Source: a virus
Length of the DNA stretch: 41,156 nucleotides
IMG/VR virus record: IMGVR_UViG_3300017987_000005
Location: 1-41,156 of that record
Reading direction: 5' to 3' (one strand)
The position numbers and the translations under genes were made by a program. Below, in pieces: positions 2,021 to 25,802 of the stretch (position 1 is the stretch's first letter; the number at the start of each line of letters is the position of its first letter). The notes beneath the pieces were generated by a model, which was not told where the DNA came from, made no database searches, and saw nothing but the letters and a program-made list of their open reading frames with translations.

Positions 2021-3523
2021 TCACAGAACAATCTTCTTGATTTCCTCCACGGCATCGCTTCCCTCACGGATAGCGACGAGCATGTCGAAAACCTTGTCAC
2101 TCCATCCGCTGATGAAGTAGACATCGTCGTCCATCACAGACAGCGGAGTCGTTCCGTATCCAGCAAGGTCGAAGAAATACGCTTCCGACTTAGGGCTCTT
2201 CTTCTTGTACTTCTTCCAGATTTCATGGAACTGAGTTCCCGAAGCACGGTGACTCACGCTCCCTTCCATCCCCATGTCACTCCAAAGCTGTGCATCAGAG
2301 AAGAAGAAAACACGGTCAGACTTCACATTCTGCTTGATGAGGTAATCAATTACCTTCCATCCGTTCGTGCTGTATCCGACCTCTCCCTCGATGTCATGCA
2401 GACGCATCGTGTTCGAGAGCGGAGTCTTGCTCGTGAAGCGCTTAACCTTCCAGTCATCTCCGAAGATTCCGACAATCGAATTCTTGGTCTTCAGCTTCAA
2501 GAGCTGACCAAGCAGCAATCCGATGTCGTAATGCTCTACGGACGAACGCGGAGCAATCGGGTCCTGCATTGAACCAGAGACGTCACATGCAATGACGTTA
2601 CGTCCCTCTGCAATCAGCTTCATATTCGAGATACTCAGCTTAGCAGCTTCCTCCAGCGCCTCCATGACAAGCTCTGCGTGGTCATTCTTGTGACTCTCAA
2701 TCATACGGAACGCGCTCAGGTACCTGAACGGGAACTGGCGCGAATTCGCAACAGCCTTCTCGTTCGAAAGGTACGCGCATACCATGTTGATGTGCTTCTC
2801 AGAAACACCGGCATCAAGAATGTTACGCAGGTTCCTCAACAGAGCCATGTAACCAACCTTCTTACTTTCAATGAGCGATTCCCACTTCTGCTTCTTACTG
2901 CGTCCGTCCGGCTTCGACAGGATAGTCTCCCAAGTGAACGGGACTTCCAGGTCTCCGTCCTTGACCTTCCTGAAAAGGTCCGACTGTCCCTTGTCTACCG
3001 GCTTCGGGCGGCAGATACGCAGGGCATCACGCAGGGTAATCTCGTAATCCCTGTTATACTTCGCGAACTGATACTCGTCAAACTTGCTGAACGCGGAAGC
3101 AACTCCCTTACGAATCTGCTTCGCTATAGGCTTCAGCTCCTCGCGTCCGCTCAGCTCCTTGTAGCATGCAAGAATCTCGTAAAGCTCATCCGCACGCTGA
3201 ATGACGCGCTCAGTGACGGTCGAAACCAGTCCCTCCGGCGTATCCAGCTTCGCAAGCTCTACAGCAAGCACAAGCGGTACAGTACGCAGGTACATACTCT
3301 CACGAGCATATACCGCCAGCTTTCCAATGAACTCAGGGCTGACACACTTCATCAGCTCCCGCATCCTGGACATCGTGTTCTTCTCAGAACGATAGAACTG
3401 ATTGTCCAGAACAGTCGTGCAAACAAGCGAGTAAAGCTCCATGTCCTCGGTCATCCCGAAGGCATCGCCTCCCGCGAAGTTCTGCACACGCGACTTACTC
3501 TTCGTCTTCGAATACTTACTCAT
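2021..3523 (-). CDS. rsr: Ro60-related TROVE/vWA RNA-binding protein
   Basis: 500 aa; TROVE motifs (YARESMYLRTVP, FDEYQFAKYNR, TWET, YMALLRNLRN, QFPFRY); vWA MIDAS DVSGSM. Confidence 0.95.
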   Translation of the reverse strand: MSKYSKTKSKSRVQNFAGGDAFGMTEDMELYSLVCTTVLDNQFYRSEKNTMSRMRELMKCVSPEFIGKLAVYARESMYLRTVPLVLAVELAKLDTPEGLVSTVTERVIQRADELYEILACYKELSGREELKPIAKQIRKGVASAFSKFDEYQFAKYNRDYEITLRDALRICRPKPVDKGQSDLFRKVKDGDLEVPFTWETILSKPDGRSKKQKWESLIESKKVGYMALLRNLRNILDAGVSEKHINMVCAYLSNEKAVANSRQFPFRYLSAFRMIESHKNDHAELVMEALEEAAKLSISNMKLIAEGRNVIACDVSGSMQDPIAPRSSVEHYDIGLLLGQLLKLKTKNSIVGIFGDDWKVKRFTSKTPLSNTMRLHDIEGEVGYSTNGWKVIDYLIKQNVKSDRVFFFSDAQLWSDMGMEGSVSHRASGTQFHEIWKKYKKKSPKSEAYFFDLAGYGTTPLSVMDDDVYFISGWSDKVFDMLVAIREGSDAVEEIKKIVL

Positions 3524-3559
3524 GTCATCACTCCTTTACAAAAAGAGGAAAGTTAAAAA

Positions 3560-3637
3560 TGGTATCCCGGACGGGACTCGAACCCGCAATCTACACCTTG
3601 AAAGGGTGTTGAGTTTAACCAATTACTCTACCGGGAC
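3560..3637 (-). tRNA. tRNA-Glu(TTC)
   Basis: ACACC-CTTTCAA-GGTGT; CCA. Confidence 0.95.
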
Positions 3638-3655
3638 ACATCCGCTTATCTTCAA

Positions 3656-3730
3656 TGGTAGGAACGGCGAGAATCGAACTCACATCTTAAGCTCCGGAGG
3701 CTTATGTTCTATCCGTTGAACTACGCTCCC
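3656..3730 (-). tRNA. tRNA-Arg(CCG)
   Basis: TAAGC-CTCCGGA-GCTTA; CCA. Confidence 0.95.
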
Positions 3731-3731
3731 T

Positions 3732-3818
3732 TGGTAGGCGAGGCGGGATTTGCACCCGCACGAGCTTACGCCCATAGGATTTTAAGTCCTAAACGTCTTC
3801 TAATTCCGCCACTCGCCC
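3732..3818 (-). tRNA. tRNA-Leu(TAA)
   Basis: TAGGA-CTTAAAA-TCCTA; long variable arm; T-loop TGCAAAT; CCA. Confidence 0.92.
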
Positions 3819-3821
3819 GTA

Positions 3822-3894
3822 TACCCCGAGAGGGATTCGAACCCCCAAATTCTCCGTCTTGAGCGGAGCGCCTATGCCGTTCGGCTACCGGGGC
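3822..3894 (-). tRNA. tRNA-Leu(CAA), short variable loop, no encoded CCA
   Basis: CTCCG-CTCAAGA-CGGAG; 5-nt variable region; A73. Confidence 0.85.
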
Positions 3895-3899
3895 GTATC

Positions 3900-3960
3900 T
3901 GGCGGGGCACTGAGTCATTTCTCCGGCGAGCGTTCCTTCTCGCTTGCGTACGCATGCCCC
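3900..3960 (-). ncRNA. 61-nt mini tRNA-like element
   Basis: Acceptor GGGGCAT/GTGCCCC-G-CCA enclosing three non-canonical hairpins. Confidence 0.55.
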
Positions 3961-3968
3961 GTAATTTC

Positions 3969-4055
3969 TGGTGGGCCGGGGAAGACTCGAACTTCCAACG
4001 TCACTCGGAACCTGATTTACAGTCAGGGGCAATACCAGTTATGCTCTACCGACCC
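3969..4055 (-). tRNA. tRNA-Tyr(GTA)
   Basis: CCTGA-CTGTAAA-TCAGG; long variable region; CCA. Confidence 0.92.
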
Positions 4056-4056
4056 G

Positions 4057-4134
4057 TGGTGGACTCGGGGGATATCGACTCCCCAACCTCTCGGGCTTCA
4101 ACCGAGCGCTCTACCAAAAATGAGCTACAAGTCC
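4057..4134 (-). tRNA. tRNA-Phe(GAA), atypical T-loop
   Basis: CTCGG-TTGAAGC-CCGAG; T-loop GTCGATA; CCA. Confidence 0.9.
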
Positions 4135-4137
4135 GTA

Positions 4138-4213
4138 TGGTGGGCACAGCAGGGCTTGAACCTGCGACTTTCAGCGTGTCGAGCTGACGCTCTTCCAACT
4201 GAGCTATGCGCCC
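4138..4213 (-). tRNA. tRNA-Val(GAC), C33
   Basis: TCAGC-TCGACAC-GCTGA; CCA. Confidence 0.92.
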
Positions 4214-4245
4214 ACAGTAAACTTTGTTTTCAAAGAACAATATCA

Positions 4246-4334
4246 TGGCGGAGCGGGGGAGACTCGAACTCCCGCAACGGAAATCCGTTGTACTGGGTTC
4301 CAGCCAGTTGCCATAGCCACTAGGCGACCGCTCC
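4246..4334 (-). tRNA. tRNA-Ser(GGA)
   Basis: ACTGG-CTGGAAC-CCAGT; long variable arm; G73-CCA. Confidence 0.95.
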
Positions 4335-4343
4335 GTAAATTCC

Positions 4344-4430
4344 TGGCGGAGGATGAGAGACTCGAACTCTCAAGACGCGAACGTCCACTTGTTTTCGAGA
4401 CAAGCTGCTTACCAGTTAGCAAAATCCTCC
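4344..4430 (-). tRNA. tRNA-Ser(CGA)
   Basis: CTTGT-CTCGAAA-ACAAG; long arm; GCCA. Confidence 0.95.
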
Positions 4431-4431
4431 G

Positions 4432-4520
4432 TGGCGGAGAGGACAGGACTCGAACCTGCAAAGCATTGCTGCCTCCTTGTTTTCAAAACAAGTCCCCACA
4501 CCTACTGGGTCAACCTCTCC
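4432..4520 (-). tRNA. tRNA-Ser(TGA)
   Basis: CTTGT-TTTGAAA-ACAAG; long arm; GCCA. Confidence 0.93.
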
Positions 4521-4554
4521 ATATTTGCAATCAATTTCAAAAGAACAATATATA

Positions 4555-4643
4555 TGGCGGAGCGACCGAGAGTTGAACTCGGAAGGGCGTATCTCATCCC
4601 GACAGATTAGCAATCTGTTGCCATACCGTTAGGCGACCGCTCC
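4555..4643 (-). tRNA. tRNA-Ser(GCT)
   Basis: ACAGA-TTGCTAA-TCTGT; long arm; GCCA. Confidence 0.95.
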
Positions 4644-4653
4644 GCGTTATTTC

Positions 4654-4728
4654 TGGCTCCAGGGAGAGGACTCGAACCTCCAACCGTCGGCTTAACAGGC
4701 CGCCACACTACCGTTGTGCTACCCTGGA
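4654..4728 (-). tRNA. tRNA-Asn(GTT)
   Basis: CGGC-CTGTTAA-GCCG; GCCA. Confidence 0.93.
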
Positions 4729-4750
4729 ATATCAGCTAATTGTAAAAAAA

Positions 4751-4870
4751 CGTGCAGCTTCTAGGCGCTCAGTTATTCCCCGACAGGAAGCGCTCCACGA
4801 AATTGTCGGGCCAGATGTCCTCATGTCAAAGCTGCTGGAGGACCCACGATTCTTCAAACGTCTCGCGACG
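4751..4870 (-). ncRNA. Candidate pseudoknotted RNA between tRNA-Trp and tRNA-Asn
   Basis: GTCCTC/GAGGAC crosses GCAGCTT/AAGCTGC; CCCGACA/TGTCGGG hairpin; CGTC-GCGA-GACG tetraloop. Confidence 0.5.
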
Positions 4871-4879
4871 ATTATTGCT

Positions 4880-4953
4880 TGGCAGGCCGTGCAGGAATCG
4901 AACCCGCATAAAGAGTTTTGGAGGCTCTCGTGTTACCATTACACTAACGACCT
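4880..4953 (-). tRNA. tRNA-Trp(CCA)
   Basis: AGAG-C-CTCCAAA-A-CTCT; GCCA. Confidence 0.93.
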
Positions 4954-4974
4954 AAATTTTATCAAAGAACATAT

Positions 4975-5289: not shown

Positions 5290-5341
5290 CTCGTCCTTAA
5301 ACACAAAAGTCCGAAAAGGTACTTTATCAACTTACGCTATC

Positions 5342-5369
5342 ATTGTAGCATATAAAAAAGATATGTCAA
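5342..5369 (-). promoter_or_regulatory. Promoter of the tRNA/rsr/Y-RNA operon
   Basis: TTGACA-N16-TACAAT, extended -10 TG, upstream T-tracts. Confidence 0.8.
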
Positions 5370-5390
5370 GATAAAAAATAAAAAAACTTT

Positions 5391-7085: not shown

Positions 7086-7282
7086 TCTATCGGTCCCCGA
7101 CCCAACAAATAATCCTCGGTCCTCTTCTCACTGTGTACGATAGTGCTGAAAAAGTATGCTTTCTGCTTCTCATACTCAGCCTTGCACTTCTCATCACAGG
7201 CAAAATCCCCATCAATATTGACGCAGATGGCGTTAGGACTGTTCAGCGGATTTTTTCCGCACTTTTCGTTCACGCAACTCAT
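7082..7282 (-). CDS. Hypothetical Cys-rich protein
   Basis: ORF with overlapping operon junctions. Confidence 0.6.
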   Translation of the reverse strand: MSCVNEKCGKNPLNSPNAICVNIDGDFACDEKCKAEYEKQKAYFFSTIVHSEKRTEDYLLGRGPIE

Positions 7283-7844
7283 GCTTTCTCGCTTTCCAAT
7301 AAGTCCACGGTTTATATTTTTTATCTATCCTGAGCTGCCCCATTAACTCCGGTACAGTCGCCTGCATCCCGAACCACAGGACAAACGGTATATTCGCGAA
7401 CAAGTACAGCCACGTAAACGGATGCCATATCCTGAATCGCGCTTTCCATACTTGGCAGTCGAGATAAAGCTGCATGGCTCCTGTGTAATACAGAAACCAT
7501 CCAAACAGCTTTACCTGTTGTTTCGCAGTCTTAATACAGTAATAGCGCATATCCGGCATATATTCTTTGTCACGCGGAATAAATCCGCACTCAGGACAAT
7601 AATAATTCTTGTGCTTCCCGACATCCTCTTCATCACCGAACATGTGCATATCAGCATTACACTCTTCGCACTTATACGGAAGTCCGATGACGGCTCCGTC
7701 GATGTACTTCTTCACAACTTCGACGTCATCAAAATCTTCATCGGGCCATCCGCAATCTTCACAGTATGCATCATCTCCGCGCGGAAATACGAGCAGTTCT
7801 CCGCACTGAGGGCAATTCGGGCTTACTTTATCTGAATCGGACAT
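7233..7844 (-). CDS. Double Zn-ribbon protein with hydrophobic C-terminus
   Basis: Four CxxC motifs. Confidence 0.6.
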   Translation of the reverse strand: MSDSDKVSPNCPQCGELLVFPRGDDAYCEDCGWPDEDFDDVEVVKKYIDGAVIGLPYKCEECNADMHMFGDEEDVGKHKNYYCPECGFIPRDKEYMPDMRYYCIKTAKQQVKLFGWFLYYTGAMQLYLDCQVWKARFRIWHPFTWLYLFANIPFVLWFGMQATVPELMGQLRIDKKYKPWTYWKARKHELRERKVRKKSAEQS

Positions 7845-7845: not shown

Positions 7846-9015
7846 CTATCCCTTTACAACTGCGAGCGGGGTCAGCTTCTCAACAATCTTCACGAGGTCA
7901 GTCTGCGACTCCATGACTTCATCTATATCCTTATAAGCGCCTGCCGCTTCGTCCAGGTCCTTCTTTCCGCGAATCGAGTGAAGAATCCCCTGGTCGTCGA
8001 GACGCCTCTGCTCCGCAACAAGGTCAAGCTCACGCTGAGCAGCTTTACGCCCCATCTTACGTCCGGCTCCGTGACTACAGGACTCGAATGAATCGCGACA
8101 TCCTTTTCCTTCAACGATATACGACGCAGTTCCCTGCGACCCTGGGATAATCCCGAGCTGTCCCTTCTTCGCAGAAGTAGCTCCCTTACGATGAACCCAT
8201 ACGTTCTTCCCGAAATGGTTCTCAAGAACAGCGTAGTTGTGATGGATATTGATTGCACCATCAAACCCACACGTAGTAATGTCGTTGACAATATCTTTTA
8301 ACGTGTCCATCATAACTCCCCGATTCGCTGCTGCGAATGCGAGGGCATAGTTCATTCCGTCAATATAGAGCCCGGCATCGCGCTCCCCGGTAGGCAGGAA
8401 CGCAAGGTCTTTGTCCGGAAGGTCTGAGAACCATCGGTTACAAAGCTCCAGAGCTTTCTTGTGGAAGAAGTTCGCAATCTTCAGTCCAAAGTTACGAGAA
8501 CCGCTGTGAATCATCAGCCACAGCATCCCTTCCTCACTCTTCTGCAACTCAATGAAATGGTTTCCTCCCCCGAGAGTTCCGAGCTGCTTCGTAGCAGATT
8601 CAAGCTCCTCCCGAACAGGCTGGACGTGGTCAGCAGGTTCGTTGAACACTTCATGTTCAATAGGATTATCCTGATGATTGAATCCAACCGGAATACGGTC
8701 ACGTACTTCCGAAAGAATCTTCTTCAGGGTATCGGTATCGACATCATCAGCTTTAATGTCAGTCTTAACTGCGCACATGCCGCACCCAATATCTACTCCG
8801 ACAGCATTCGGGACAATGACACAATCAGCGGCAAGAACTCCGCCGATAGGCATCCCGTACCCCTGATGACAATCCGGCATCAATGCGATATGACTATGTG
8901 CAAACGGAAGGTTCGACAGGTTCTTCGCCTGCTCGAGCGCTCCCGGCTCAACGTAATCACACCACGACTTTACTGGTAATCCACATCCTTCTTTAATCAC
9001 CCACTTCATCATCAT
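7846..9015 (-). CDS. rtcB: RtcB RNA 3'-phosphate/5'-OH ligase
   Basis: MPDCHQG, VGVDIGCG, LGGGNHFIE, HSGSR, HHNY, HRKGAT, PGSQG, SHGAGR, DEAAGAYK. Confidence 0.97.
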   Translation of the reverse strand: MMMKWVIKEGCGLPVKSWCDYVEPGALEQAKNLSNLPFAHSHIALMPDCHQGYGMPIGGVLAADCVIVPNAVGVDIGCGMCAVKTDIKADDVDTDTLKKILSEVRDRIPVGFNHQDNPIEHEVFNEPADHVQPVREELESATKQLGTLGGGNHFIELQKSEEGMLWLMIHSGSRNFGLKIANFFHKKALELCNRWFSDLPDKDLAFLPTGERDAGLYIDGMNYALAFAAANRGVMMDTLKDIVNDITTCGFDGAINIHHNYAVLENHFGKNVWVHRKGATSAKKGQLGIIPGSQGTASYIVEGKGCRDSFESCSHGAGRKMGRKAAQRELDLVAEQRRLDDQGILHSIRGKKDLDEAAGAYKDIDEVMESQTDLVKIVEKLTPLAVVKG

Positions 9016-14283: not shown

Positions 14284-14475
14284 TCATAACTTCGCGTCCT
14301 TTGTGAAAAAATCACTCCCCTCCTTTACGAATCCCGAAACAGTGCTGATAATGCTATTAGCACGCTTCCCGCACTTCTCGCACTTCGTCCACTTCTTCTT
14401 TTTGCTTATTGAAAAATCACGCTGCTGCACGTGATTGCAATTAACACATTGATATTCATATGTCGGCATTACCAC
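14284..14475 (-). CDS. FmdB-family zinc ribbon protein
   Basis: MPTYEYQCVNCNH...CEKCG. Confidence 0.8.
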   Translation of the reverse strand: MVMPTYEYQCVNCNHVQQRDFSISKKKKWTKCEKCGKRANSIISTVSGFVKEGSDFFTKDAKL

Positions 14476-16521: not shown

Positions 16522-16549
16522 ATTATATCATATACTTCTGATATGTCAA
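16522..16549 (-). promoter_or_regulatory. sigma70-type promoter
   Basis: TTGACA-N16-TATAAT, extended -10 TG. Confidence 0.85.
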
Positions 16550-17641: not shown

Positions 17642-17922
17642 GACCTCCCGTTGTTAAACCAGGGGTAAACAGCAACGATGTCATAACGGACTATCTTCCG
17701 ACCATCTTCCTTCATGTGTCCTTTGCGCACGACTAGAATACGGTCGTCTATAAAAGGGATATCTTCTTTACGTACTTCGCGGATAACAATCTGAAGAAAC
17801 TTCTTTATATCCTTGACTCCGTTCTTCTTGAATAGCTGATAAGAAGCTCCGACTTTGGCTTTATTTTTACCGAACCTGCTCCTGCAACCGCCAAGTGCTA
17901 GTTCCAGGGCCATATCGCTCAT
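17638..17922 (-). CDS. Hypothetical protein, WFxN tag
   Basis: Ends PWFNNGRS. Confidence 0.7.
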   Translation of the reverse strand: MSDMALELALGGCRSRFGKNKAKVGASYQLFKKNGVKDIKKFLQIVIREVRKEDIPFIDDRILVVRKGHMKEDGRKIVRYDIVAVYPWFNNGRS

Positions 17923-19250: not shown

Positions 19251-19504
19251 TTCTCACCATTCCGACAAGGCAACAAAGCATGCTCAGTATTAGCGATAAG
19301 TACGAGCATTTCAACTACGTCATCAATTCGTACGGCTGCGTTCAAAGGAAAATATGCGATAGTAAGCTTACACTGGTCATTGAATTGTATAATCTTCTTC
19401 ACAGTTTCCTTATCAATCTCCTTTGCAGTACGCATATACAACTTAATGGCATCGACACTGTACAGTTTCTCTGCTAATACTCTCAATAAATCTGTACTAG
19501 GCAT
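19247..19504 (-). CDS. Hypothetical protein
   Basis: Coupled between the polymerase and helicase genes. Confidence 0.6.
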   Translation of the reverse strand: MPSTDLLRVLAEKLYSVDAIKLYMRTAKEIDKETVKKIIQFNDQCKLTIAYFPLNAAVRIDDVVEMLVLIANTEHALLPCRNGEK

Positions 19505-21416
19505 AACAAATCTTAGCTCCGCAACAAGACGTAACTACATATTCTTCTTTATCGTCCGGGTCCCACGCTTTCGCTACATCCGCCCTCACGTCAATCTCAT
19601 CATCCTCGTGTGCTCCGCACTTTCCTGGGCACGTCATCGCTTTAACCCAGCGGTCACCGATATATCCATCCACTACAACAGGAACGCGAAGCTTTACTGC
19701 GTCCTCCATACATTTCGCTATTTCACAATACGTCTGAAACGGATGGTGGCGCTCATCAATCGAAAATAACAGCTCATCATGAACTTGAATCAAGGGCTTG
19801 CAATCAATTTCCGGATGAGACATCAAATAGTCGCGAACACGTTTAATAGCAACTCCCATAATATCGGCGGCGCCGCCCTGAATCGCAGAATTAAAATACT
19901 GGCGAAATGCGCGCTCACGCTCATAATCGTCCATAGAACGGTCATACGGAACTCGTCTGAATCGTCCGCTGATAAGCTTATACGGCTTTTCATCCCACAG
20001 TTTCTCACGCATATGGTCCATGAACTTCTTTATTCCCGCATACTGCTCAAAGAACTGGTCAATAAACTTGTATGCTTTGGTCTTGGATATCCCGGCTTGT
20101 TCTGAAAGGGAATTTGCTCCCATCCCATAAACAATCCCGAAGTTAATGACTTTCGCATGGCGGCGGTCATCTGTCTCCAGGAGCTTCTGAGTAGTTGCGT
20201 GAATATCGTCTCCCTTATTAAACGCCTCAATCATCCTCGGCTCGCGACTCAAATGCGCAAGTATCCGAAGCTCAATCTGACTAAAGTCCAATCCGATAAA
20301 TAGGCGCCCAGGCTCGGGAACAAATACATTCCGGAAATTCCCGTGCGTCGGCATCTGCTGCAAGTTCGGGTTGGATGCGCTCATCCGCCCCGTAACTGTG
20401 CGAACCTGATGAAATGATGGGTGTATCCGTCCGTCTGGAGAATCCTTGATAAAATGGATAAACGGCTCTGCAAACGAATCAATAAACTTCGTCAACTCAC
20501 GATGCTGAAGAAGAAGCTCCGGTATCCTATCCTTACGCTTCACTTCCCGCGCAAGCTTCTTCAGTACGGCTGCGCCGGTCCCGTAATATCCGTTCTTCCC
20601 CTTCCGGGTAATTTCGTCTACTCGAGTCCCCTTAGTAATCGCTACGGGGTATCCGAGTCCTCCTTCCTTTTTATCGCTAAACAATACTTGTGATACTTGC
20701 TGAGAAGAGGTCAAAAGAAACTTCTTTCCGACAGTCTCATAAATGAGATTCGTTACTTTCTCAATATCTCCGCGAACACGTATGCGGAAATCGCTGAGTT
20801 CTTTCGGGTCAACTTTGATTCCGTTATACTCCATATCAGAGATATATCTCGCAACATCCATCTCGAGTTCAAGAAGAACGCGCAGTAAATTCTGATTTTC
20901 AATCTCTTTAATCAGAGCTTTGAACAGCATAAAAGTATAATGCCCGTCCTCTTTCGCATACTCTTCTAATGAAGGTACTTCCTCACTCTCCTCAAAAAAC
21001 GTTCCCTCCATCTCCGCAATAGCTTCATACGGAATCATATCATGGTCAAAAAAACGCTTAACCAAATGGTCAAGCGAATACTGCTTATAATTTTCGTCCA
21101 GTAGCCACGCAGCAATCATGGTACATACGAGCTGACAATCGGGTTCAATTCCCCACTTGTACTTCAGCCACTTATAATCGAATACCATGTTGTGCGCTAT
21201 CAACCACGCATCTTTTCGCTTGCACACTGCTTCAAGCACAGGCTTCCCATCGTCCTTGGGGAACCAGAAGTCGCCATCTACAGTTGAGATGGCGACTCCT
21301 TTAATTTCCCCTGTACGTGGAGTAAGACTGGTAGTCTCGAAATCGAAAACTACGTGTTCACGCGACGATACGGAGTCGAGGCACTTAGAAAGGGACGGCT
21401 CCGGGGTCGTCGTCAT
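19497..21416 (-). CDS. polA: Family A DNA polymerase with 3'-5' exonuclease
   Basis: DFETT exo I; DFSQIELR motif A; RRHAKVINFGIVYG motif B; QVHDEL motif C. Confidence 0.96.
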   Translation of the reverse strand: MTTTPEPSLSKCLDSVSSREHVVFDFETTSLTPRTGEIKGVAISTVDGDFWFPKDDGKPVLEAVCKRKDAWLIAHNMVFDYKWLKYKWGIEPDCQLVCTMIAAWLLDENYKQYSLDHLVKRFFDHDMIPYEAIAEMEGTFFEESEEVPSLEEYAKEDGHYTFMLFKALIKEIENQNLLRVLLELEMDVARYISDMEYNGIKVDPKELSDFRIRVRGDIEKVTNLIYETVGKKFLLTSSQQVSQVLFSDKKEGGLGYPVAITKGTRVDEITRKGKNGYYGTGAAVLKKLAREVKRKDRIPELLLQHRELTKFIDSFAEPFIHFIKDSPDGRIHPSFHQVRTVTGRMSASNPNLQQMPTHGNFRNVFVPEPGRLFIGLDFSQIELRILAHLSREPRMIEAFNKGDDIHATTQKLLETDDRRHAKVINFGIVYGMGANSLSEQAGISKTKAYKFIDQFFEQYAGIKKFMDHMREKLWDEKPYKLISGRFRRVPYDRSMDDYERERAFRQYFNSAIQGGAADIMGVAIKRVRDYLMSHPEIDCKPLIQVHDELLFSIDERHHPFQTYCEIAKCMEDAVKLRVPVVVDGYIGDRWVKAMTCPGKCGAHEDDEIDVRADVAKAWDPDDKEEYVVTSCCGAKICYA

Positions 21417-22122
21417 AGTCTACATCTCCTTCATCTGAAAAATCACTGTCATCGTCACTGGAAGAGCTTTTTCCGTGCTTCTTCCCACGCCATTCCGCAA
21501 GGTGAGCAATCTCCTTCATATCACTCTTTGAATAAGGCTGGAGAATCTCTTCGTAATCAATGGAATCATAATCGTCCACGTCTTCTTTCTCAACGTAGTC
21601 CCAATCATCCCCGACTACGGGCGCTTGCTTTGCTCCGGTACGCGTGACAGAGAACCGCTTCCCTACAATCCCCTTGAGTTTCTTATGCTTTGCGCGCAGA
21701 AGCTCCAGAGTGTAGTACTTCGCGGGGAGGAGGCAGACAATGTCCTTTACTTCGTCTCCGTCCTTGTTTGTGTAGCCCGTGTGGTCTACAATGGTGAAAA
21801 ATCCGGTATGCGAGGCTTTGTTCCCCGCGTCACACAACGGGCATGTTCCCTTTTTGGGATTCCCCCGACCATCGCGTCTTGCGATGCAAGTCGCATGTCC
21901 AGGACTGTCATCAATCCAATAGGTATGCTCAAATACTCTGAAGCACTTGTCATCAACGAAAGAAAGCTCTTTCGTCTCATCCTTCGGAATCCAGAAACGC
22001 TTCGGGACAGGTTCATCATTCTTGTCCTTCTTCTGCCACCACGCATATCCGCTTCCACCCCCTCCTGATGAGGGGAAATCTTCCGACGACGGCATCCCGG
22101 TATCAAACCATTTGTCTCCCAT
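21385..22122 (-). CDS. Putative single-stranded DNA-binding protein
   Basis: Lies between primase and polymerase; CPLC; acidic tail ending VPF. Confidence 0.7.
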   Translation of the reverse strand: MGDKWFDTGMPSSEDFPSSGGGGSGYAWWQKKDKNDEPVPKRFWIPKDETKELSFVDDKCFRVFEHTYWIDDSPGHATCIARRDGRGNPKKGTCPLCDAGNKASHTGFFTIVDHTGYTNKDGDEVKDIVCLLPAKYYTLELLRAKHKKLKGIVGKRFSVTRTGAKQAPVVGDDWDYVEKEDVDDYDSIDYEEILQPYSKSDMKEIAHLAEWRGKKHGKSSSSDDDSDFSDEGDVDYDDDPGAVPF

Positions 22123-22174
22123 AACTTGTTCCTTTCTGTCTTAGTAAGACATCACGCTAACTCAAAATGAGTTG

Positions 22175-23164
22175 CTACTTATGGACTTTCTTTTTAGTCC
22201 GGCTTTTCGGTTCTCTTCGAACCACTGTTCTGTTGTCGAACAATTCGACAAGCTCTTCTCTGGATAAATCGCAAGGGTCTTTTCCTTCGGGCAACTCGCA
22301 CTTAAAAAGCATCGGCACATGGTCATACAGATACTTCTTCACGGAACGCTCAAGCTTCTTTCCTCCTTCGTCACCGTCCGCCATAGTAGTCAGACTGTTC
22401 ACTCTCTTGAGGATATCCACTTGATACTCGCTGACTGAACTTCCGTTAGCTCCTAACGGTCTTACCCCATCCTTGAATCCATCCAGGTGTAAAACATCCA
22501 ACTGTCCTTCGACGAGCACTACATCATCACCCCCTTTCAAAAACTGCTCTCCAAACAGACAAAGTTCTGCGCAAGTTCCTTTCTCGTACAGCCAACGTTT
22601 TCGACGGTCATCTTTATCCGTCGATAATAATCTCTTAGCAGCACCGACTATGTTTCCCAATGAATCCTTCATTGGTAAAACAAGGTAGTCTCCGTGCTGT
22701 TGGATATCGAACTTATCGATGCAATCAATTGCAATTCCGCGATATATGAGATAATCATAAACGCGAGAACTGGCAGGCGTGTAACGCGCCATCCACTCAA
22801 CATTAAACTCTAGTGTCTCCCCTTCTCCGAACAACCCATCATCCCACGTAAAATCCCGCTCATCTTCGTCAAGCATCTCTTCGAGTTTATCGCACTTCTC
22901 TTCAGGAAATCCAAGCTCCTTCAAAACTGCGACCATATAACCCAAAGAACCCCCGCCAGTCTCGCAGGAAAAACAATGAAATAAATGCGGCTCCTCAATA
23001 CGGATAGATGCGTTACCGAGCTTCTTATCCACTCCGTTCTTATGTTTCCAATGAGCAAATGGACAGCTTATCACGATATTCTCGATACGATGTTTACGAA
23101 AATCGTGTAATTGGTACTTTACTCCCAATATATTCAAGAATTTGATAAGCTCTTCGCGCTTCAT
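22175..23164 (-). CDS. dnaG: DNA primase
   Basis: Zn finger CPFAHWKH..CFSC; TOPRIM VEGQLD, DGDEGG, KDP. Confidence 0.9.
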   Translation of the reverse strand: MKREELIKFLNILGVKYQLHDFRKHRIENIVISCPFAHWKHKNGVDKKLGNASIRIEEPHLFHCFSCETGGGSLGYMVAVLKELGFPEEKCDKLEEMLDEDERDFTWDDGLFGEGETLEFNVEWMARYTPASSRVYDYLIYRGIAIDCIDKFDIQQHGDYLVLPMKDSLGNIVGAAKRLLSTDKDDRRKRWLYEKGTCAELCLFGEQFLKGGDDVVLVEGQLDVLHLDGFKDGVRPLGANGSSVSEYQVDILKRVNSLTTMADGDEGGKKLERSVKKYLYDHVPMLFKCELPEGKDPCDLSREELVELFDNRTVVRREPKSRTKKKVHK

Positions 23165-23198
23165 GCATCACTCTCACGATACTAAATAGACTGCTTGT

Positions 23199-23226
23199 AT
23201 GATAGCATACATTTCGGATTTGTCAA
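23199..23226 (-). promoter_or_regulatory. sigma70-type promoter
   Basis: TTGACA-N16-TATCAT, extended -10 TG. Confidence 0.75.
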
Positions 23227-23239
23227 GTAAAAAATAACT

Positions 23240-23809
23240 TTAATTTTCCGCTATTTTACGCGCTAAACTCAGCGCCTCCACGCACTTACGTACTTTCTCA
23301 GGATTTTTCCCGCTTCTGAGGACCGCTGAGGGGTGGAGGCATGGGATAAGGGTACATGTATGCTCTCCCCCTAAAAGTGGCTCAGAATTGAAATGACGGG
23401 GCTTACCGCACGTCTTAGATATCCCTGCAAACTCCCCTGTCAATGCTCCTGTAGAGCTGTTTCCGAGGGTCACGATAGCTTTCGGCTTAATACTGTCGAT
23501 TTCGGCAGCAAGAAAGCACTTGCATCGGTCAATCTCCTTCTTTGTCGGCTTGCGGGGTTTCCCGTCCTTTGCAGGAAAACATTTCACGATATTCGTGATA
23601 TAATAATGCTCAAGTTCGGCTGCTTCGATAAACTCGTCTAGGAGTTTTCCAGCGCGTCCGACAAAAGCGTGCCCCTCAACATCTTCAGAATTTCCCGGCG
23701 CTTCCCCGATAATCATTACTGCATCGTGCGGGAGTCCGTGAGCACGCGGTTTCACGTGCATCGTCCGAGCAGCTTCTCCGAGATGACATCCTTTACAAAC
23801 ATCGTCCAT
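23240..23809 (-). CDS. Uracil-DNA glycosylase, family 4
   Basis: CxxC, GEAPG, FVGRAG, TNIVKC, HPS. Confidence 0.93.
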   Translation of the reverse strand: MDDVCKGCHLGEAARTMHVKPRAHGLPHDAVMIIGEAPGNSEDVEGHAFVGRAGKLLDEFIEAAELEHYYITNIVKCFPAKDGKPRKPTKKEIDRCKCFLAAEIDSIKPKAIVTLGNSSTGALTGEFAGISKTCGKPRHFNSEPLLGGEHTCTLIPCLHPSAVLRSGKNPEKVRKCVEALSLARKIAEN

Positions 23810-24192
23810 CAGACATTCCCTTTATACCACGGCAGAAAATTGTCAATCTCAAGCTTCGAAGGGAACGTTCCGTTGAATCTGAATCCCCGGTCATCGATTG
23901 ACATAATCGCTGGAACTTTCTCAGTCGGGAAAAAGATACTCTCATCCTCGATATGCTGATATGTTACACCATGCTCCAAAACATACTTCCGCATAGCTTC
24001 TATCCCGCCCTCCTGATGTGAACGTGAAGATAGTATCGCAATCTTAAAATCGCGCGCCATATTATTCAACCACTCGATAGCTCCTTCAACAGGCTGGTCC
24101 GGGCATACGTCGGCTCCCTTCCATCCCGATTTATACGAATGGATAACTCCATCAAAATCACATATAATTGTCTGCTTCATTACATTCTCCAA
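23809..24192 (-). CDS. HAD-superfamily phosphatase-like protein
   Basis: DFDGVIH, SSR, K, IDDR. Confidence 0.8.
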   Translation of the reverse strand: MENVMKQTIICDFDGVIHSYKSGWKGADVCPDQPVEGAIEWLNNMARDFKIAILSSRSHQEGGIEAMRKYVLEHGVTYQHIEDESIFFPTEKVPAIMSIDDRGFRFNGTFPSKLEIDNFLPWYKGNV

Positions 24193-24221
24193 AAGTATTA
24201 AAAAAAGAAGTAAGCTTGATT

Positions 24222-24494
24222 TTAAGGCGGCTCCCTTATGATTCCGAAATAGTCTCTTATCGTTGGAAGATGTTCATCGCTTGGCAACTCAAAAGACTCC
24301 TCCTCAATGAAGACCTCCTCCTCTTCTTCTTTATCACAATAACAATCCGGCACAATACTGGTAGCATAGCAATCTCCGTCCCCGTCGCCGTAAACATCGT
24401 CAGTAAGTTCATTGGTAGCTGACGTGGTGGCTCCCCCGGACGTATTCGTCCAGGAACGCGACGTCCCCTGCGTACTATCAGCATAAGGTATCAC
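24222..24494 (-). CDS. Hypothetical acidic protein
   Basis: Start overlaps the coaD stop. Confidence 0.5.
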   Translation of the reverse strand: MIPYADSTQGTSRSWTNTSGGATTSATNELTDDVYGDGDGDCYATSIVPDCYCDKEEEEEVFIEEESFELPSDEHLPTIRDYFGIIREPP

Positions 24495-25027
24495 AAAATT
24501 AAACTCCGTTCAGAGTCAGTAAGTTCCCCATATCGTCCGAACTTCGCATATAACTGTATGCGGACAAACGGGCTAACAAATTCCTCGACTGACCCGCCGG
24601 CCCCCATAACCTCCCGGACCATGCTCGAACTAATATACGATATTGACGGGTCTGACATGACAAACACTGTTTCTATGCTCGGGTCAAGCTTACTGTTCAC
24701 AGTCGCAATCGGGTATTCGTACTCAAAGTCCAGTTGATTGCGGATACCACGAAGAATTATATCAATATCGTGCTTCTTACAGAAATCTACAGTCAATCCT
24801 TCGTATGTAAATATCTCGACTTTCGCACTTGCATACTTTCCGGAATGACATTCTGCGGCATAATCGTTAATATGCTGAACGCGTTCCTCTACGCTGAATA
24901 TGGGGTCTTTCTTATTAGTCAGGGCAATGCCGATAACAAGCTCGTCAAATATACGCAGACCGCGCCTTATGATATCCTGGTGCCCTCTTGTCAAAGGGTC
25001 AAATGTTCCTGGGTATAAAGCTTTCAT
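24491..25027 (-). CDS. coaD: Phosphopantetheine adenylyltransferase
   Basis: YPGTFDPLTRGH, RGIRN..DFEYE, ISSSMVRE. Confidence 0.93.
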   Translation of the reverse strand: MKALYPGTFDPLTRGHQDIIRRGLRIFDELVIGIALTNKKDPIFSVEERVQHINDYAAECHSGKYASAKVEIFTYEGLTVDFCKKHDIDIILRGIRNQLDFEYEYPIATVNSKLDPSIETVFVMSDPSISYISSSMVREVMGAGGSVEEFVSPFVRIQLYAKFGRYGELTDSERSLIL

Positions 25028-25035
25028 AACTACTC

Positions 25036-25326
25036 CTACGGATTTATAGGCGGGAACAGCTTGTCAAATTTCCGAGCCATATCATAACTGCATATGCGAA
25101 GCTCACGACCATCAGTAAGAATAATACTTCCAGGCTGCTTTCCGTGTCCGCAGCAGCAAGCATCAGTATAAACTCCGGCATCATTCAATGCTTGAACTAT
25201 CGGAGCGATGCACCGGTCAATACTTCTCGGCTCCTCAATATAATTAAAATCATCAAGCTTGATGACTAAATTCAGGGTGACGGTGTCTCCCCATTCGCAC
25301 ATCCGATTTCCTTTTCTTACAAACAA
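25036..25326 (-). CDS. Phage hypothetical protein (IDxCI...LN..G..T..CCxGH)
   Basis: IDRCIAPIVQALNDAGVYTDACCCGHG. Confidence 0.65.
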   Translation of the reverse strand: MFVRKGNRMCEWGDTVTLNLVIKLDDFNYIEEPRSIDRCIAPIVQALNDAGVYTDACCCGHGKQPGSIILTDGRELRICSYDMARKFDKLFPPINP

Positions 25327-25489
25327 GCCTGTGGTTTATCTCGCAGTCCGGCTCTGAACAATGTCGCCCCTGATTATCCCACCAAGGAACGTGGTAACGC
25401 GCCCCTTCTTTTATAACATGCTTTATCATCTTCTCCCCGCAATGCGGACACTCGACTTCCTCATGCGGGACTCTCTCAAAACTACTCAC
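25253..25489 (-). CDS. Hypothetical Zn-finger protein
   Basis: CPHC...CSEPDC; start reassigned. Confidence 0.5.
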   Translation of the reverse strand: MSSFERVPHEEVECPHCGEKMIKHVIKEGARYHVPWWDNQGRHCSEPDCEINHRLVCKKRKSDVRMGRHRHPEFSHQA

Positions 25490-25802
25490 TCTTTTTCTCC
25501 CTGAAAAAATCTCCCTCATTCTGCATCTTAAATCCAGCCCCGTTGAGAACTCCGTACATATTCTTCCGTCCCGCTGGATTTGCCGTGCATATTTGGACAT
25601 GGTCAGGAAGCAGGTCTTTAATATCAAGCATCCCGAGTATCTCGTATCCGTTGATATCGTCATCGCCTAAATCGTGGTCCATGACAAGACATTCAATCTG
25701 TCCCTTCAGGGCTTCGATTGTCCGAACTGCCGCATACGGACTTCGTATAATGACGTCACAATCAAGTTCGCGCTCGTCATCAACTATCACCCACATGCTC
25801 AT
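25482..25802 (-). CDS. Cyclic-phosphate-processing receiver-like domain protein
   Basis: VDDER...MDHDLG...GYE...TANPAGRKNM. Confidence 0.75.
   Translation of the reverse strand: MSMWVIVDDERELDCDVIIRSPYAAVRTIEALKGQIECLVMDHDLGDDDINGYEILGMLDIKDLLPDHVQICTANPAGRKNMYGVLNGAGFKMQNEGDFFREKKSE

What the first reader, a model, noticed from the sequence alone, without database searches (positions are those of the whole stretch)
2021..25802. Extensive phage kit for RNA repair and translation rescue
Seen together: Rsr with Y-like RNAs, 17 or more tRNAs, RtcB next to an RNase Z-like MBL hydrolase, a stand-alone GGQ release factor, a calcineurin-like phosphoesterase, a HAD phosphatase and a cyclic-phosphate receiver-like domain. 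Established: Salmonella rsr-yrlBA-rtcBA responds to tRNA cleavage, and RtcB2-PrfH repairs ribotoxin-damaged ribosomes. Inference: a coordinated counter-defence against host tRNA and rRNA ribotoxins.
Basis: partly seen in the sequence, partly recalled or inferred. Interest (0 to 1): 0.7.

Follow-up and report, generated by a model that had tools for sequence, protein, structure and literature searches.

The report
Dispersed phage RNA repair gene set
A complete 184-kb uncultured phage carries real genes for replacing, resealing and rescuing damaged translation RNAs. They are scattered among replication genes rather than forming one unit, the idea is already published for large phages, and the supposed RNase Z is an anti-Pycsar-type enzyme.

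Summary
Most listed parts are real. They include Rsr (TROVE), six tandem Y-like RNAs, 17 tRNAs in the window (about 44 in the genome), RtcB with an intact active site, and a 118-aa GGQ-only release-factor domain. A metallophosphoesterase and a cREC domain are also present.

Corrections:
- The MBL hydrolase beside RtcB belongs to the Apyc1 (anti-Pycsar) cyclic-nucleotide phosphodiesterase family, not RNase Z.
- The HAD call rests on one motif and weak PHROG hits.
- The Y-like RNAs and four tRNAs lie outside the stated coordinates.
- Helicase, PolA, primase and UDG fill the middle of the stretch.

The parts are not an operon. Near RtcB, Rsr or GGQ genes in other phage contigs the partners are almost never neighbours.

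At whole-genome level a core does recur. Three of 37 distantly related RtcB phages carry TROVE, GGQ, cREC and RlaP together (size-stratified permutation P about 1e-4). This genome also has RlaP. Apyc1 is not part of that set.

The genome has no ATP-type RNA ligase or polynucleotide kinase, so end-healing phosphatases are not needed for RtcB.

Iyer, Burroughs and Aravind already described such kits in jumbo phages. This is a new member of a known kind. The scan noted a similar dispersed set in another genome.

The parts
62..962 (-). Four tRNA genes (Pro, Arg, Cys, Glu). They are the downstream end of the RNA island, which continues across the genome junction to 178191-183558.
   Evidence: ARAGORN and Rfam tRNA, 57-63 bits. 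CCA is encoded in all four.
996..1880 (-). Six tandem Y-like RNA genes directly downstream of rsr. Approximate units: U6 996-1141, U5 1170-1301, U4 about 1325-1468, U3 1483-1545, U2 1561-1710, U1 1742-1880.
   Evidence: All six share a 5' motif and a 3' motif. Their terminal helix is 4 bp, a bulged U, then 2 bp, with six different compensated base combinations. The permuted tRNA-like module of U4 matches Rfam YrlA at 40.6 bits (E 2e-7); U6 scores 25.7 and U1 20.8, all below the gathering score of 69.
2021..3523 (-). Rsr / Ro60-like RNA-binding protein, 500 aa
   Evidence: Pfam TROVE 119 bits and DUF7788 31.5 bits; phrog_850 178 bits. It is 26-39% identical to TROVE proteins of cultured Halogranum, Brevundimonas, Caulobacter and Vibrio phages.
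3560..4953 (-). Thirteen tRNA genes upstream of rsr: Glu, Arg, Leu x2, Tyr, a Phe-like one at 4060-4134, Val, Ser x4, Asn, Trp
   Evidence: ARAGORN and Rfam. The tRNA at 4060-4134 is found only by Rfam (54.5 bits); its anticodon loop reads GAA in the fold.
5342..5369 (-). Sigma-70-like promoter consensus upstream of the tRNA/rsr/Y-RNA island
   Evidence: 11 of 12 hexamer positions match, with an extended -10 TG. This is a consensus match only.
7233..7844 (-). Zinc-ribbon protein with hydrophobic segments and a basic C-terminal tail, 2 nt downstream of RtcB. Function unknown.
   Evidence: Weak DZR match, 20.6 bits, below the cut-off. Cys pairs and the basic tail are seen in the translation. No PDB sequence match.
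7846..9015 (-). RtcB RNA ligase (joins 3'-P or 2',3'-cyclic-P ends to 5'-OH ends), 389 aa
   Evidence: PF01139 382 bits. The Asp/Cys/His metal ligands and the His nucleophile are conserved against PDB 1uc2/4dwq. It is below the cut-offs of the PrfH-paired RtcB family (TIGR03073: 158 against 271.8) and of PRK09588.
8993..9874 (-). Apyc1-family MBL-fold phosphodiesterase, 293 aa. Its end overlaps the RtcB start by 23 nt.
   Evidence: PF23023 119 bits against a cut-off of 50. PDB 7t28 at E 7e-35 and the Apyc1 entries 7u2s/7u2r at E 2e-32 and 3e-31; the HxHxDH motif is present. It is 33% identical to the SBSphiJ and BSP38 Apyc1 loci. RNase Z models reach only 28-31 bits.
13641..13997 (-). Stand-alone GGQ (RF-1 domain) protein, 118 aa; a predicted codon-independent peptidyl-tRNA hydrolase
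   Evidence: PF00472 75.7 bits; phrog_3122 117 bits. The GGQ motif and a conserved C-terminal region appear in 22 aligned phage homologues. It is below the cut-offs for PrfH, ArfB, RF1 and RF2.
14469..15359 (-). 296-aa protein of unknown family between the metallophosphoesterase and the GGQ gene
   Evidence: No Pfam, PHROG, NCBIfam or PDB sequence match. 83 unannotated homologues. The AlphaFold2 model has pLDDT 93 with no convincing structural match.
15356..15922 (-). Calcineurin-like metallophosphoesterase, 188 aa; substrate unknown
   Evidence: PF00149 30.6 bits; phrog_547 133 bits; PDB 1xm7 at E 3e-6. The DxH, GD and GNHD motifs are present.
17919..23809 (-). Interleaved DNA replication module, not part of any RNA kit: SF2 helicase, PolA, an unknown ORF, Toprim primase, UDG
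   Evidence: Pfam ResIII/DEAD, DNA_pol_A 319 bits, Toprim_2, UDG 105 bits.
23809..24180 (-). Small HAD-like protein, 123 aa; a candidate phosphatase with weak support
   Evidence: DxDGV motif near the N-terminus. No Pfam match. phrog_23773 91.6 bits, phrog_1238, and a faint match to phrog_415, a polynucleotide-kinase family. No PDB sequence match.
24491..25027 (-). CoaD-like (phosphopantetheine adenylyltransferase family) nucleotidyltransferase, 178 aa
   Evidence: TIGR01510 170 bits against a cut-off of 103. PF01467 73.9 bits.
25482..25802 (-). cREC (cyclic-phosphate processing receiver-like) domain protein, 106 aa
   Evidence: PF20274 55.8 bits against a cut-off of 27; phrog_1479. The acidic residues of the receiver pocket are present in the translation.

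Best explanation
The window is the early/replication region plus part of the RNA-gene island of a complete 184-kb tailed phage. The phage carries a dispersed, non-operonic guild of genes that most likely keeps translation running when tRNA or rRNA is cut during infection.

Proposed roles (all inferred):
- Replace: about 44 phage tRNAs covering all 20 amino acids, with a miniature RNase P RNA in the same island.
- Reseal: RtcB joins 2',3'-cyclic-P or 3'-P ends to 5'-OH ends left by metal-independent RNases. The RlaP nucleotidyltransferase at genome 161 kb and the cREC domain may act as end-processing helpers.
- Release: the 118-aa GGQ protein hydrolyses peptidyl-tRNA on ribosomes jammed by broken RNA.
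- Triage: Rsr, loaded with six Y-like RNAs that carry different tRNA-like modules.

The MBL enzyme beside RtcB is a separate counter-defence. It is an Apyc1-type cyclic-nucleotide phosphodiesterase that would destroy Pycsar-type signals.

The metallophosphoesterase, the small HAD-like protein and the CoaD-like transferase cannot be assigned to RNA repair.

What is shown: family membership, intact catalytic motifs, the gene layout and the co-occurrence statistics. What is inferred: every biochemical activity, the substrates and the link to host defence.
For: - Family assignments and intact motifs.
- rsr and six Y-like RNAs sit inside one continuous tRNA array of about 10 kb that also holds an RNase P-like RNA (61 bits, E 8e-17).
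- rsr lies beside tRNA arrays in 6 of 16 other phage Rsr loci.
- The genome also encodes RlaP (58 bits).
- Among 37 RtcB-bearing phage contigs of 40 kb or more, TROVE occurs in 4, RF-1 in 5, cREC in 9 and RlaP in 11. All four occur together in 3 contigs, where about 0.04 is expected.
- The size-stratified permutation gives P about 1e-4.
- The RtcBs of those genomes are only 37-49% identical to each other and to this one, so the phages are distant.
- In one of them (94 kb, complete) Rsr, GGQ, RlaP, cREC and RtcB lie within 25 kb on one strand, while almost nothing else is shared with this phage.
- In one contig a GGQ homologue (49% identical) sits 26 nt upstream of an RtcB (56% identical).
- In cultured phages Rsr-like genes occur in 99, RtcB in 700 and this GGQ family in 255 of 50,697 records. 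These are low base rates.
- Published comparative genomics proposes the same roles (PMC7824862, PMC6514570, PMC9503650).
- Experiments on bacterial relatives exist for rsr-yrlBA-rtcBA (PMC7790460) and PrfH-RtcB2 (PMC9304027, PMC9223846).
Against: - There is no operon. The parts are interleaved with replication genes.
- Two strong promoter-like sites suggest separate transcription units, though these are consensus matches only.
- Local linkage is nearly absent elsewhere: 0 of 80 RtcB loci have Rsr or the MBL within 10 kb, and 1 of 80 has GGQ.
- RtcB is found in only 1 of 16 Rsr-bearing records, and in none of five complete ones.
- Cluster C mycobacteriophage ScottMcG has tRNAs, TROVE and the same GGQ family but no RtcB.
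Within the 11 records of 150 kb or more the pairwise signals are weak.
- The records were chosen through similarity to this RtcB, and many are incomplete.
- cREC, RlaP and this GGQ family have no published biochemistry (PMC9503650 says so for cREC).
- No RtcA or Archease is present.
Confidence: 0.55

Rival explanations
1. The genes are an unlinked collection. Large phages accumulate many accessory translation and RNA genes, and each one acts on its own. For example, tRNAs would serve codon supply after host shut-off. Rsr-Y would do quality control of the phage's own abundant tRNA transcripts. The GGQ protein would rescue non-stop ribosomes when host mRNA is degraded. RtcB would do general RNA end joining. 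On this view there is no shared pathway and no dedicated anti-ribotoxin role.
For: - The layout is scattered among replication genes.
- Partners are almost never neighbours in 134 other loci.
- RtcB is absent from 15 of 16 Rsr records and from ScottMcG, which has Rsr, GGQ and tRNAs.
- In ScottMcG the GGQ gene sits between DNA polymerase and a recombinase.
- cREC, TROVE and GGQ hits concentrate in records of 150 kb or more.
Against: - Three distant RtcB phages, one of only 94 kb, carry all four other core families (P about 1e-4 after size stratification).
- That 94-kb phage shares little else with this genome.
- One direct GGQ-RtcB adjacency exists.
Confidence: 0.3
2. The MBL hydrolase is an RNase Z-like RNA endonuclease that works with RtcB on tRNA ends or on broken RNA.
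For: - The two genes overlap by 23 nt.
- One of only two close relatives of the MBL (59% identical) sits inside the tRNA array of a 231-kb phage, between tRNA-Tyr and tRNA-Met.
- Some GenBank records label homologues as ribonuclease Z.
- The phage encodes its own RNase P-like RNA, so phage-encoded tRNA processing has a precedent in this genome.
Against: - Sequence places the protein in the Apyc1 family, including the experimentally characterised SBSphiJ and BSP38 enzymes (PMC9117128).
- RNase Z equivalog models score a tenth of their cut-offs, and only over the shared N-terminal metal motif.
- No insertion long enough for the RNase Z flexible arm appears in the alignment to Apyc1.
- About 38 of 44 tRNA genes encode CCA. 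From my own knowledge, CCA is an anti-determinant for RNase Z.
- From my own knowledge, MBL nucleases leave 3'-OH and 5'-P ends, which RtcB cannot join.
- No Apyc1-family gene is found in the five other phages that combine RtcB with TROVE or GGQ, nor near any of 80 RtcB loci.
Confidence: 0.07
3. The set is a housekeeping system for the phage's own RNA island rather than a counter-defence. The mini RNase P RNA, Rsr-Y and RtcB would mature, proofread or join the phage's 44 tRNA transcripts. The GGQ factor would handle translation problems caused by the phage's own takeover.
For: - rsr and the Y-like RNAs are embedded in the tRNA array beside an RNase P-like RNA.
- rsr lies next to tRNA arrays in other phages.
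- GGQ homologues lie near tRNA arrays in 8 of 38 loci and in phage EniyanLRS.
Against: - ARAGORN reports no intron-containing or split tRNA genes that would need a ligase.
- The 94-kb phage with the full core set has no tRNA genes in the 40 kb that holds the set.
- RtcB substrates arise from metal-independent RNases, which are typical defence and toxin enzymes (PMC7824862).
Confidence: 0.08

Closest known systems
RNA repair and ribosome rescue gene sets of jumbo phages, as catalogued by Iyer, Anantharaman, Krishnan, Burroughs and Aravind (Viruses 2021, PMC7824862) and Burroughs and Aravind (NAR 2016, cited there)
   Same: The parts list and the reading are the same. It covers many phage tRNAs plus an RtcB or Rnl ligase, TROVE with a tRNA-like RNA partner, cRec, HAD and calcineurin-like phosphatases, RlaP, and peptidyl-tRNA hydrolysis for jammed ribosomes.
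   Different: That survey names PTH2/Pth1 as the phage hydrolases, whereas this phage uses a GGQ-only RF-1 domain protein. It ties phosphatases and kinases to ATP-type ligases, which this genome lacks. This genome is 184 kb, just under the usual jumbo limit, and adds six Y-like RNAs and an RNase P-like RNA.
Salmonella Typhimurium rsr-yrlBA-rtcBA operon (PMC7790460, PMC4201824)
   Same: Rsr, Y RNAs with a tRNA-like module and RtcB lie on one strand within 8 kb.
   Different: There is no RtcA, and RtcR was not tested. The order differs, and a 13-tRNA block, several ORFs and a likely separate promoter lie between. There are six Y-like RNAs instead of two, all below the Rfam YrlA threshold. The Rsr scores 35 bits against the 900-bit bacterial Rsr equivalog cut-off.
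PrfH-RtcB2 ribosome rescue and repair module of E. coli (PMC9304027, PMC9223846; PDB 7sa4)
   Same: It pairs a GGQ release-factor relative with an RtcB ligase in one genome. In one other phage contig the same two families are directly adjacent.
   Different: Here the two genes are 4.6 kb and about nine genes apart. The GGQ protein has only the catalytic domain (118 aa against about 200 aa) and scores 65.7 against the PrfH cut-off of 166.65. The RtcB scores 158 against 271.8 for the PrfH-paired family.
Apyc1 of Bacillus phages SBSphiJ and BSP38 (PMC9117128; PDB 7t28, 7u2s, 7u2r)
   Same: The alignment is full length at about 33% identity, with the HxHxDH metal motif and a score above the Pfam family threshold.
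   Different: All 42 cultured-phage homologues are in Bacillus phages, whereas this one is in an uncultured phage with 46% G+C. It has about 40 extra residues at the ends and overlaps RtcB. Its activity is untested.
Cluster C (Bxz1-like) mycobacteriophages such as ScottMcG and ET08, and Caulobacter phage CcrColossus
   Same: ScottMcG carries a Ro60/TROVE gene and the same GGQ-only family (50% identical). YrlA-like RNAs were reported in mycobacteriophages (PMC4201824). CcrColossus carries a TROVE-like gene, and Caulobacter phages carry RtcB.
   Different: ScottMcG has no RtcB. Its GGQ gene sits between DNA polymerase and a recombinase. I did not check CcrColossus itself for RtcB.

Membership tests
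Ro60/Rsr (TROVE) | TROVE HEAT-repeat ring domain followed by a vWA-like domain | tested here: met
   PF05731 119 bits against a cut-off of 23; DUF7788 31.5 against 27.1.
Ro60/Rsr (TROVE) | Meets the curated bacterial Rsr equivalog model (NF041674) | tested here: not met
   35 bits against a cut-off of 900. It is a divergent phage clade, phrog_850.
YrlA-type Y RNA (Rfam RF02553; Chen et al. 2014) | Reaches the Rfam gathering score | tested here: not met
   The best score is 40.6 bits (unit 4, tRNA-like part only); units 6 and 1 score 25.7 and 20.8. The gathering score is 69.
YrlA-type Y RNA (Rfam RF02553; Chen et al. 2014) | Encoded within 4 kb of rsr on the same strand; terminal stem plus a tRNA-like module in the order T arm, closed acceptor-like stem, D arm | tested here: met
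   The units lie 140-2500 nt downstream of rsr on the same strand. Units 1, 4 and 6 show the permuted module in the Rfam alignments. All six share a compensated terminal helix.
RtcB RNA ligase | RtcB fold with the Asp/Cys/His metal ligands and the His nucleophile | tested here: met
   PF01139 382 bits. The residues align with P. horikoshii RtcB.
PrfH-paired RtcB (RtcB2, TIGR03073) | Curated family score and adjacency to prfH | tested here: not met
   158 bits against 271.8. The GGQ gene lies 4.6 kb away.
PrfH (TIGR03072) | GGQ domain plus a retained codon-recognition-like domain, about 200 aa | tested here: not met
   65.7 bits against 166.65. Only residues 9-70 align, and the protein is 118 aa.
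ArfB (NF006718) | GGQ domain, linker and C-terminal helix; curated score | tested here: not met
   35 bits against 100, and only residues 8-39 align.
RF-1 domain (PF00472) / phrog_3122 phage mini release factor | Catalytic GGQ motif in an RF-1 domain | tested here: met
   75.7 bits against 35; phrog_3122 117 bits. The GGQ motif is conserved in the alignment.
RNase Z (TIGR02651, NF000801) | Curated equivalog score over the full length, including the flexible-arm exosite | tested here: not met
   28-31 bits against cut-offs of 252-293, and only residues 20-91 align.
Apyc1 anti-Pycsar phosphodiesterase (PF23023) | Family score, full-length similarity to solved Apyc1, and the HxHxDH motif | tested here: met
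   119 bits against 50. 7t28, 7u2s and 7u2r match at E 7e-35 to 3e-31 over residues 20-267.
Apyc1 anti-Pycsar phosphodiesterase (PF23023) | Hydrolysis of cCMP and cUMP and rescue from Pycsar | not testable with these tools
   This needs an enzyme assay and phage challenge. PMC9117128 notes that related host MBL enzymes prefer cAMP/cGMP.
cREC (PF20274) | Family score and the acidic receiver pocket | tested here: met
   55.8 bits against 27. The acidic residues appear in the translation.
HAD phosphatase | DxDx(T/V) nucleophile motif plus a recognisable HAD profile match | tested here: inconclusive
   The motif is present. No Pfam or PDB sequence match. Only PHROG matches, one of them faint to a polynucleotide-kinase family.
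T4-type healing and sealing (Pnkp plus Rnl1/Rnl2) | ATP-dependent RNA ligase and polynucleotide kinase-phosphatase | tested here: not met
   No PF09414 or AAA_33 match in the complete genome. The PF09511 search found nothing, but its control rang nowhere, so that result is weak.
Salmonella-type rtc operon | RtcA cyclase with RtcB in one operon | tested here: not met
   No PF01137 match in the genome.

The most novel reading that the evidence does not exclude
RtcB, a GGQ-only mini release factor, Rsr with its Y RNAs, cREC and RlaP may form one discrete phage pathway. Unrelated phages would assemble it repeatedly without needing gene linkage. It would be a viral counterpart of PrfH-RtcB2 that frees and repairs ribosomes or tRNAs cut by host ribotoxins. 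In this phage an Apyc1-family enzyme may have been drawn into the same pathway, for example to act on 2',3'-cyclic nucleotides or cyclic RNA ends.
Probability: 0.2. Interest if true: 0.6.

Novelty: new member of a known kind. Interest (0 to 1): 0.4.

Why it matters
Host defences that cut tRNA or rRNA are now known to be common; examples are PrrC, RloC, PARIS, retron effectors and colicins. How phages survive them is an active question (PMC10264068, PMC11555353). This genome is a compact, complete example that unites nearly every proposed answer: replacement tRNAs, an RtcB ligase, a minimal release factor, and Ro60 with six Y RNAs.

The co-occurrence result gives a concrete five-gene set to test together. 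The correction of the RNase Z call matters for annotation, because several GenBank phage records carry that label on Apyc1 relatives.

Tried and rejected
- Megablast of 10 kb against cultured phages found nothing. PolA is at most 33% identical to any record, so no close cultured relative helps.
- The exact Y-stem sequence pattern was not found beside rsr in 16 other phage loci. Rfam YrlA did not reach its gathering score in seven of them. The Y-RNA comparison across phages therefore led nowhere here.
- Only two close relatives of the MBL were found in IMG/VR, too few for neighbourhood statistics.
- The 296-aa neighbour of the GGQ gene gave a confident model. It had no Foldseek match at E of 0.001 or better, and only weak VIA-align rows. 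The best was Z 5.7, rmsd 2.9 over 78 residues, to a MecA/YpbH C-terminal domain, below the level the tool calls trustworthy.
- The ESM Atlas structure search returned no answer.
- The ORF at 25253-25663, which overlaps cREC, has no match and is probably spurious.
- I considered a GGQ-phosphoesterase link, since both lie within 1.4 kb here and within 0.8 kb in phage EniyanLRS. I rejected it as thin: the two phosphoesterases share only 21% identity at E 1e-4, and none of 38 GGQ loci repeats the pairing.

Full report
WHAT THE SEQUENCE IS

The window is bases 1-41156 of a complete IMG/VR virus record of 183,648 bp. I found about 124 bp repeated at the two ends, so the assembly closes on itself. 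G+C is about 46% and every convincing gene in the window is on the minus strand. No cultured phage is close. Megablast finds nothing, and the PolA is at most 33% identical to any GenBank phage record.

CHECKING THE LISTED PARTS

- Rsr (2021-3523) is a TROVE protein with a C-terminal vWA-like domain.
- RtcB (7846-9015) scores 382 bits. It keeps every metal ligand and the histidine nucleophile when aligned with the Pyrococcus enzyme.
- The protein at 13641-13997 is a 118-residue RF-1 domain with the GGQ motif, a member of phrog_3122.
- 15356-15922 is a calcineurin-like metallophosphoesterase with its motifs intact.
- 25482-25802 is a cREC domain.
- The window has 17 true tRNA genes, 13 of them inside the stated range.

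The whole genome has about 44 tRNAs for all 20 amino acids. They form one array that runs from 178191 across the junction to 4953, and about 38 encode CCA.

rsr lies inside that array. So does a 200-nt RNase P class A-like RNA at genome 182484-182683 (61 bits, E 8e-17, below the Rfam gathering score of 100).

THE Y-LIKE RNAs

Six tandem units lie at 996-1880, directly downstream of rsr and therefore just outside the finding's coordinates.

- All begin with a shared 5' motif and end with a shared 3' motif.
- Paired, the two ends give the same terminal helix in each unit: four base pairs, a bulged U, then two more pairs. The four outer pairs differ in all six units and are compensated every time.
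- The 5' motif resembles the GNCGAA(N)G element that Chen et al. reported in YrlA RNAs (PMC4201824).
- Units 1, 4 and 6 carry the permuted tRNA-like module of YrlA. Unit 4 matches the Rfam model at E 2e-7 over that part. No unit reaches the gathering score.
- Unit 5 instead embeds a tRNA-like element of normal topology. Unit 3 is a bare 63-nt stem-loop.

I reached this before reading the earlier follow-up on the same stretch, which agrees.

TWO CORRECTIONS

First, the MBL hydrolase at 8993-9874 is not RNase Z-like in any specific sense.
- Its best Pfam family is Anti-Pycsar_Apyc1 (119 bits, cut-off 50).
- It aligns over its full length with three solved Apyc1 structures at E 7e-35 to 3e-31.
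- Its only homologues among cultured phages are 42 Bacillus phages. These include SBSphiJ and BSP38, where Apyc1 was discovered and shown to hydrolyse cCMP and cUMP (PMC9117128).
- RNase Z models reach a tenth of their cut-offs, and only over the shared metal-binding N-terminus.
- Two observations keep a small door open for an RNA role. The gene overlaps RtcB by 23 nt. One of its two close metagenomic relatives sits inside the tRNA array of a 231-kb phage.
- Against that door: the tRNAs encode CCA. From my own knowledge, MBL nucleases leave ends that RtcB cannot join. No Apyc1-family gene accompanies RtcB elsewhere.

Second, the HAD phosphatase is weakly founded. The only candidate (23809-24180) has the nucleophile motif and PHROG matches, but no Pfam or PDB sequence match.

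IS IT A COORDINATED KIT?

Physically, it is not.
- Between rsr and cREC lie a helicase, PolA, primase, UDG and some twenty unknown ORFs.
- Near-consensus promoter-like sites at 16549-16522 and 5369-5342 suggest separate units for the GGQ/phosphoesterase group and for the RNA island. These are consensus matches only.
- In other phage contigs the partners are not neighbours. Within 10 kb of 80 RtcB genes there is no Rsr, no Apyc1-like gene and one GGQ gene.
- Within 10 kb of 38 GGQ genes there is one RtcB. Within 10 kb of 16 rsr genes there is none.
- What does recur locally is rsr beside tRNA arrays (6 of 16 loci) and GGQ near tRNA arrays (8 of 38 loci, and in phage EniyanLRS).

At the level of whole genomes the picture changes.
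- Among 37 RtcB-bearing contigs of at least 40 kb, TROVE occurs in 4, an RF-1 domain in 5, cREC in 9 and RlaP in 11.
- Three contigs (94 kb complete, 174 kb, 488 kb complete) have all four.
- Independent assortment predicts about 0.04 such contigs. Shuffling within two size classes reaches three in about 1 of 10,000 trials.
- The RtcBs of these phages and of this one are only 37-49% identical.
- The 94-kb phage shares almost nothing with this genome except Rsr, GGQ, RlaP and RtcB. Together with its cREC gene, these lie within 25 kb on one strand.
- This genome also has RlaP, at 161058-161687.
- One contig has the same GGQ and RtcB families 26 nt apart.
- Base rates in cultured phages are low: 99 records with an Rsr-like gene, 700 with RtcB and 255 with this GGQ family, out of 50,697.

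Caveats:
- Records were reached through similarity to this RtcB, and many are fragments.
- Size remains a strong confounder: 7 of 11 records of 150 kb or more have cREC.
- The association is one-sided. Only 1 of 16 Rsr records has RtcB, and none of five complete ones.
- The cluster C mycobacteriophage ScottMcG has TROVE and the GGQ protein but no RtcB.

MECHANISM

RtcB joins 3'-phosphate or 2',3'-cyclic-phosphate ends to 5'-OH ends without prior healing (PMC3458531). The complete genome shows no Rnl2-type ligase, no AAA_33-type kinase, no RtcA, no Archease and no CCA-adding enzyme. The Rnl1 search was uninformative because its control rang nowhere.

Phosphatases that strip 3' phosphates therefore have no obvious place in an RtcB pathway. 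The literature ties them to ATP-type ligases (PMC7824862). So I leave the metallophosphoesterase, the HAD-like protein and the CoaD-like transferase (TIGR01510, 170 bits) unassigned.

The reading I favour, at 0.55, is a dispersed guild:
- phage tRNAs replace cut ones;
- RtcB reseals, perhaps with RlaP and cREC;
- the GGQ protein frees jammed ribosomes;
- Rsr-Y particles sort damaged or misfolded RNA;
- the Apyc1-like enzyme is an unrelated counter-defence against cyclic-pyrimidine signalling.

All activities are inferred.

COMPARISON WITH WHAT IS KNOWN

The concept is not new. They give the same rationale. Burroughs and Aravind (PMC6514570) discuss release-factor relatives coupled to RtcB.

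The Salmonella rsr-yrlBA-rtcBA operon responds to damaged tRNAs (PMC7790460). PrfH-RtcB2 rescues colicin E3-damaged ribosomes (PMC9304027, PMC9223846).

This phage is not a member of either system. RtcA is missing, the order and spacing differ, and both the GGQ protein and the RtcB fall below the curated cut-offs of the PrfH pair.

An unchecked first-stage note records a similar dispersed set (cREC, phosphoesterase, Rnl2-type ligase, Ro60/Y RNA) in another genome.

VERDICT

- It is a new, unusually complete member of a known kind of phage gene set.
  - the Apyc1 correction;
  - the absence of physical linkage, combined with a genome-level excess of a five-family core;
  - the point that the phosphatases do not fit an RtcB-only repair scheme.
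- Interest is moderate.

Noticed in passing
Own genome 182484-182683, - strand (L139:4985-5184), outside the window: A 200-nt RNase P class A-like RNA sits between two tRNA-Thr genes inside the tRNA array. It scores 61 bits (E 8e-17) and spans the whole model with large deletions.
   Followed up: partly
window 14469-15359 (-): A 296-aa protein with 83 unannotated homologues and no Pfam family. Its AlphaFold2 model is very confident (pLDDT 93, pTM 0.87) yet has no convincing match in the PDB. It sits between the metallophosphoesterase and the GGQ gene.
   Followed up: partly
window 7233-7844 (-): A protein 2 nt downstream of RtcB has two or three zinc ribbons, hydrophobic segments that look membrane-spanning, and a strongly basic C-terminal tail. 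Burroughs and Aravind mention zinc-finger proteins with charged tails beside PrfH-RtcB. Whether this one is related was not tested.
   Followed up: no
L138:10001-10786 (231-kb IMG/VR phage): A 59%-identical relative of the Apyc1-like MBL sits inside a 21-tRNA array, between tRNA-Tyr and tRNA-Met.
   Followed up: partly
L007:9606-11116: A GGQ-only protein (49% identical to the window's) ends 26 nt before an RtcB (56% identical) on the same strand. This is the only such adjacency in 80 RtcB loci.
   Followed up: yes
G043 (488-kb phage) 239722-240757: The RlaP and cREC genes are about 200 nt apart on the same strand, which fits the published operonic links of cREC with RNA repair genes.
   Followed up: no
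window 1170-1301 (-), Y-like unit 5: This unit embeds a tRNA-like element of normal, not permuted, topology with a 5-nt anticodon-like loop (Rfam tRNA 44 bits). ARAGORN calls it a tRNA of undetermined identity.
   Followed up: partly
window 4060-4134 (-): A tRNA found by Rfam (54.5 bits) but missed by ARAGORN. The fold shows a GAA (Phe) anticodon and an unusual T loop. It would be the second Phe tRNA in the genome.
   Followed up: partly
window 24491-25027 (-) and 26168-26992 (-): A phage-encoded CoaD-type adenylyltransferase scores above the curated equivalog cut-off. A radical-SAM-like protein with a CxxxCxxC motif and a faint QueE-like match lies nearby. Together they flank the cREC gene.
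   Followed up: no
window 16522-16549 and 5342-5369 (-): Two near-perfect sigma-70-type promoter consensus sites (12 of 12 and 11 of 12 positions, both with an extended -10 TG). This hints at a host with a standard sigma-70 and at separate transcription units.
   Followed up: no
L146 (Mycobacterium phage EniyanLRS) 58436-66489 in the record: A cultured phage has an array of about 27 tRNAs and a tmRNA. Within 2 kb follow a GGQ-only protein (49% identical to the window's) and, two genes later, a phosphoesterase.
   Followed up: partly
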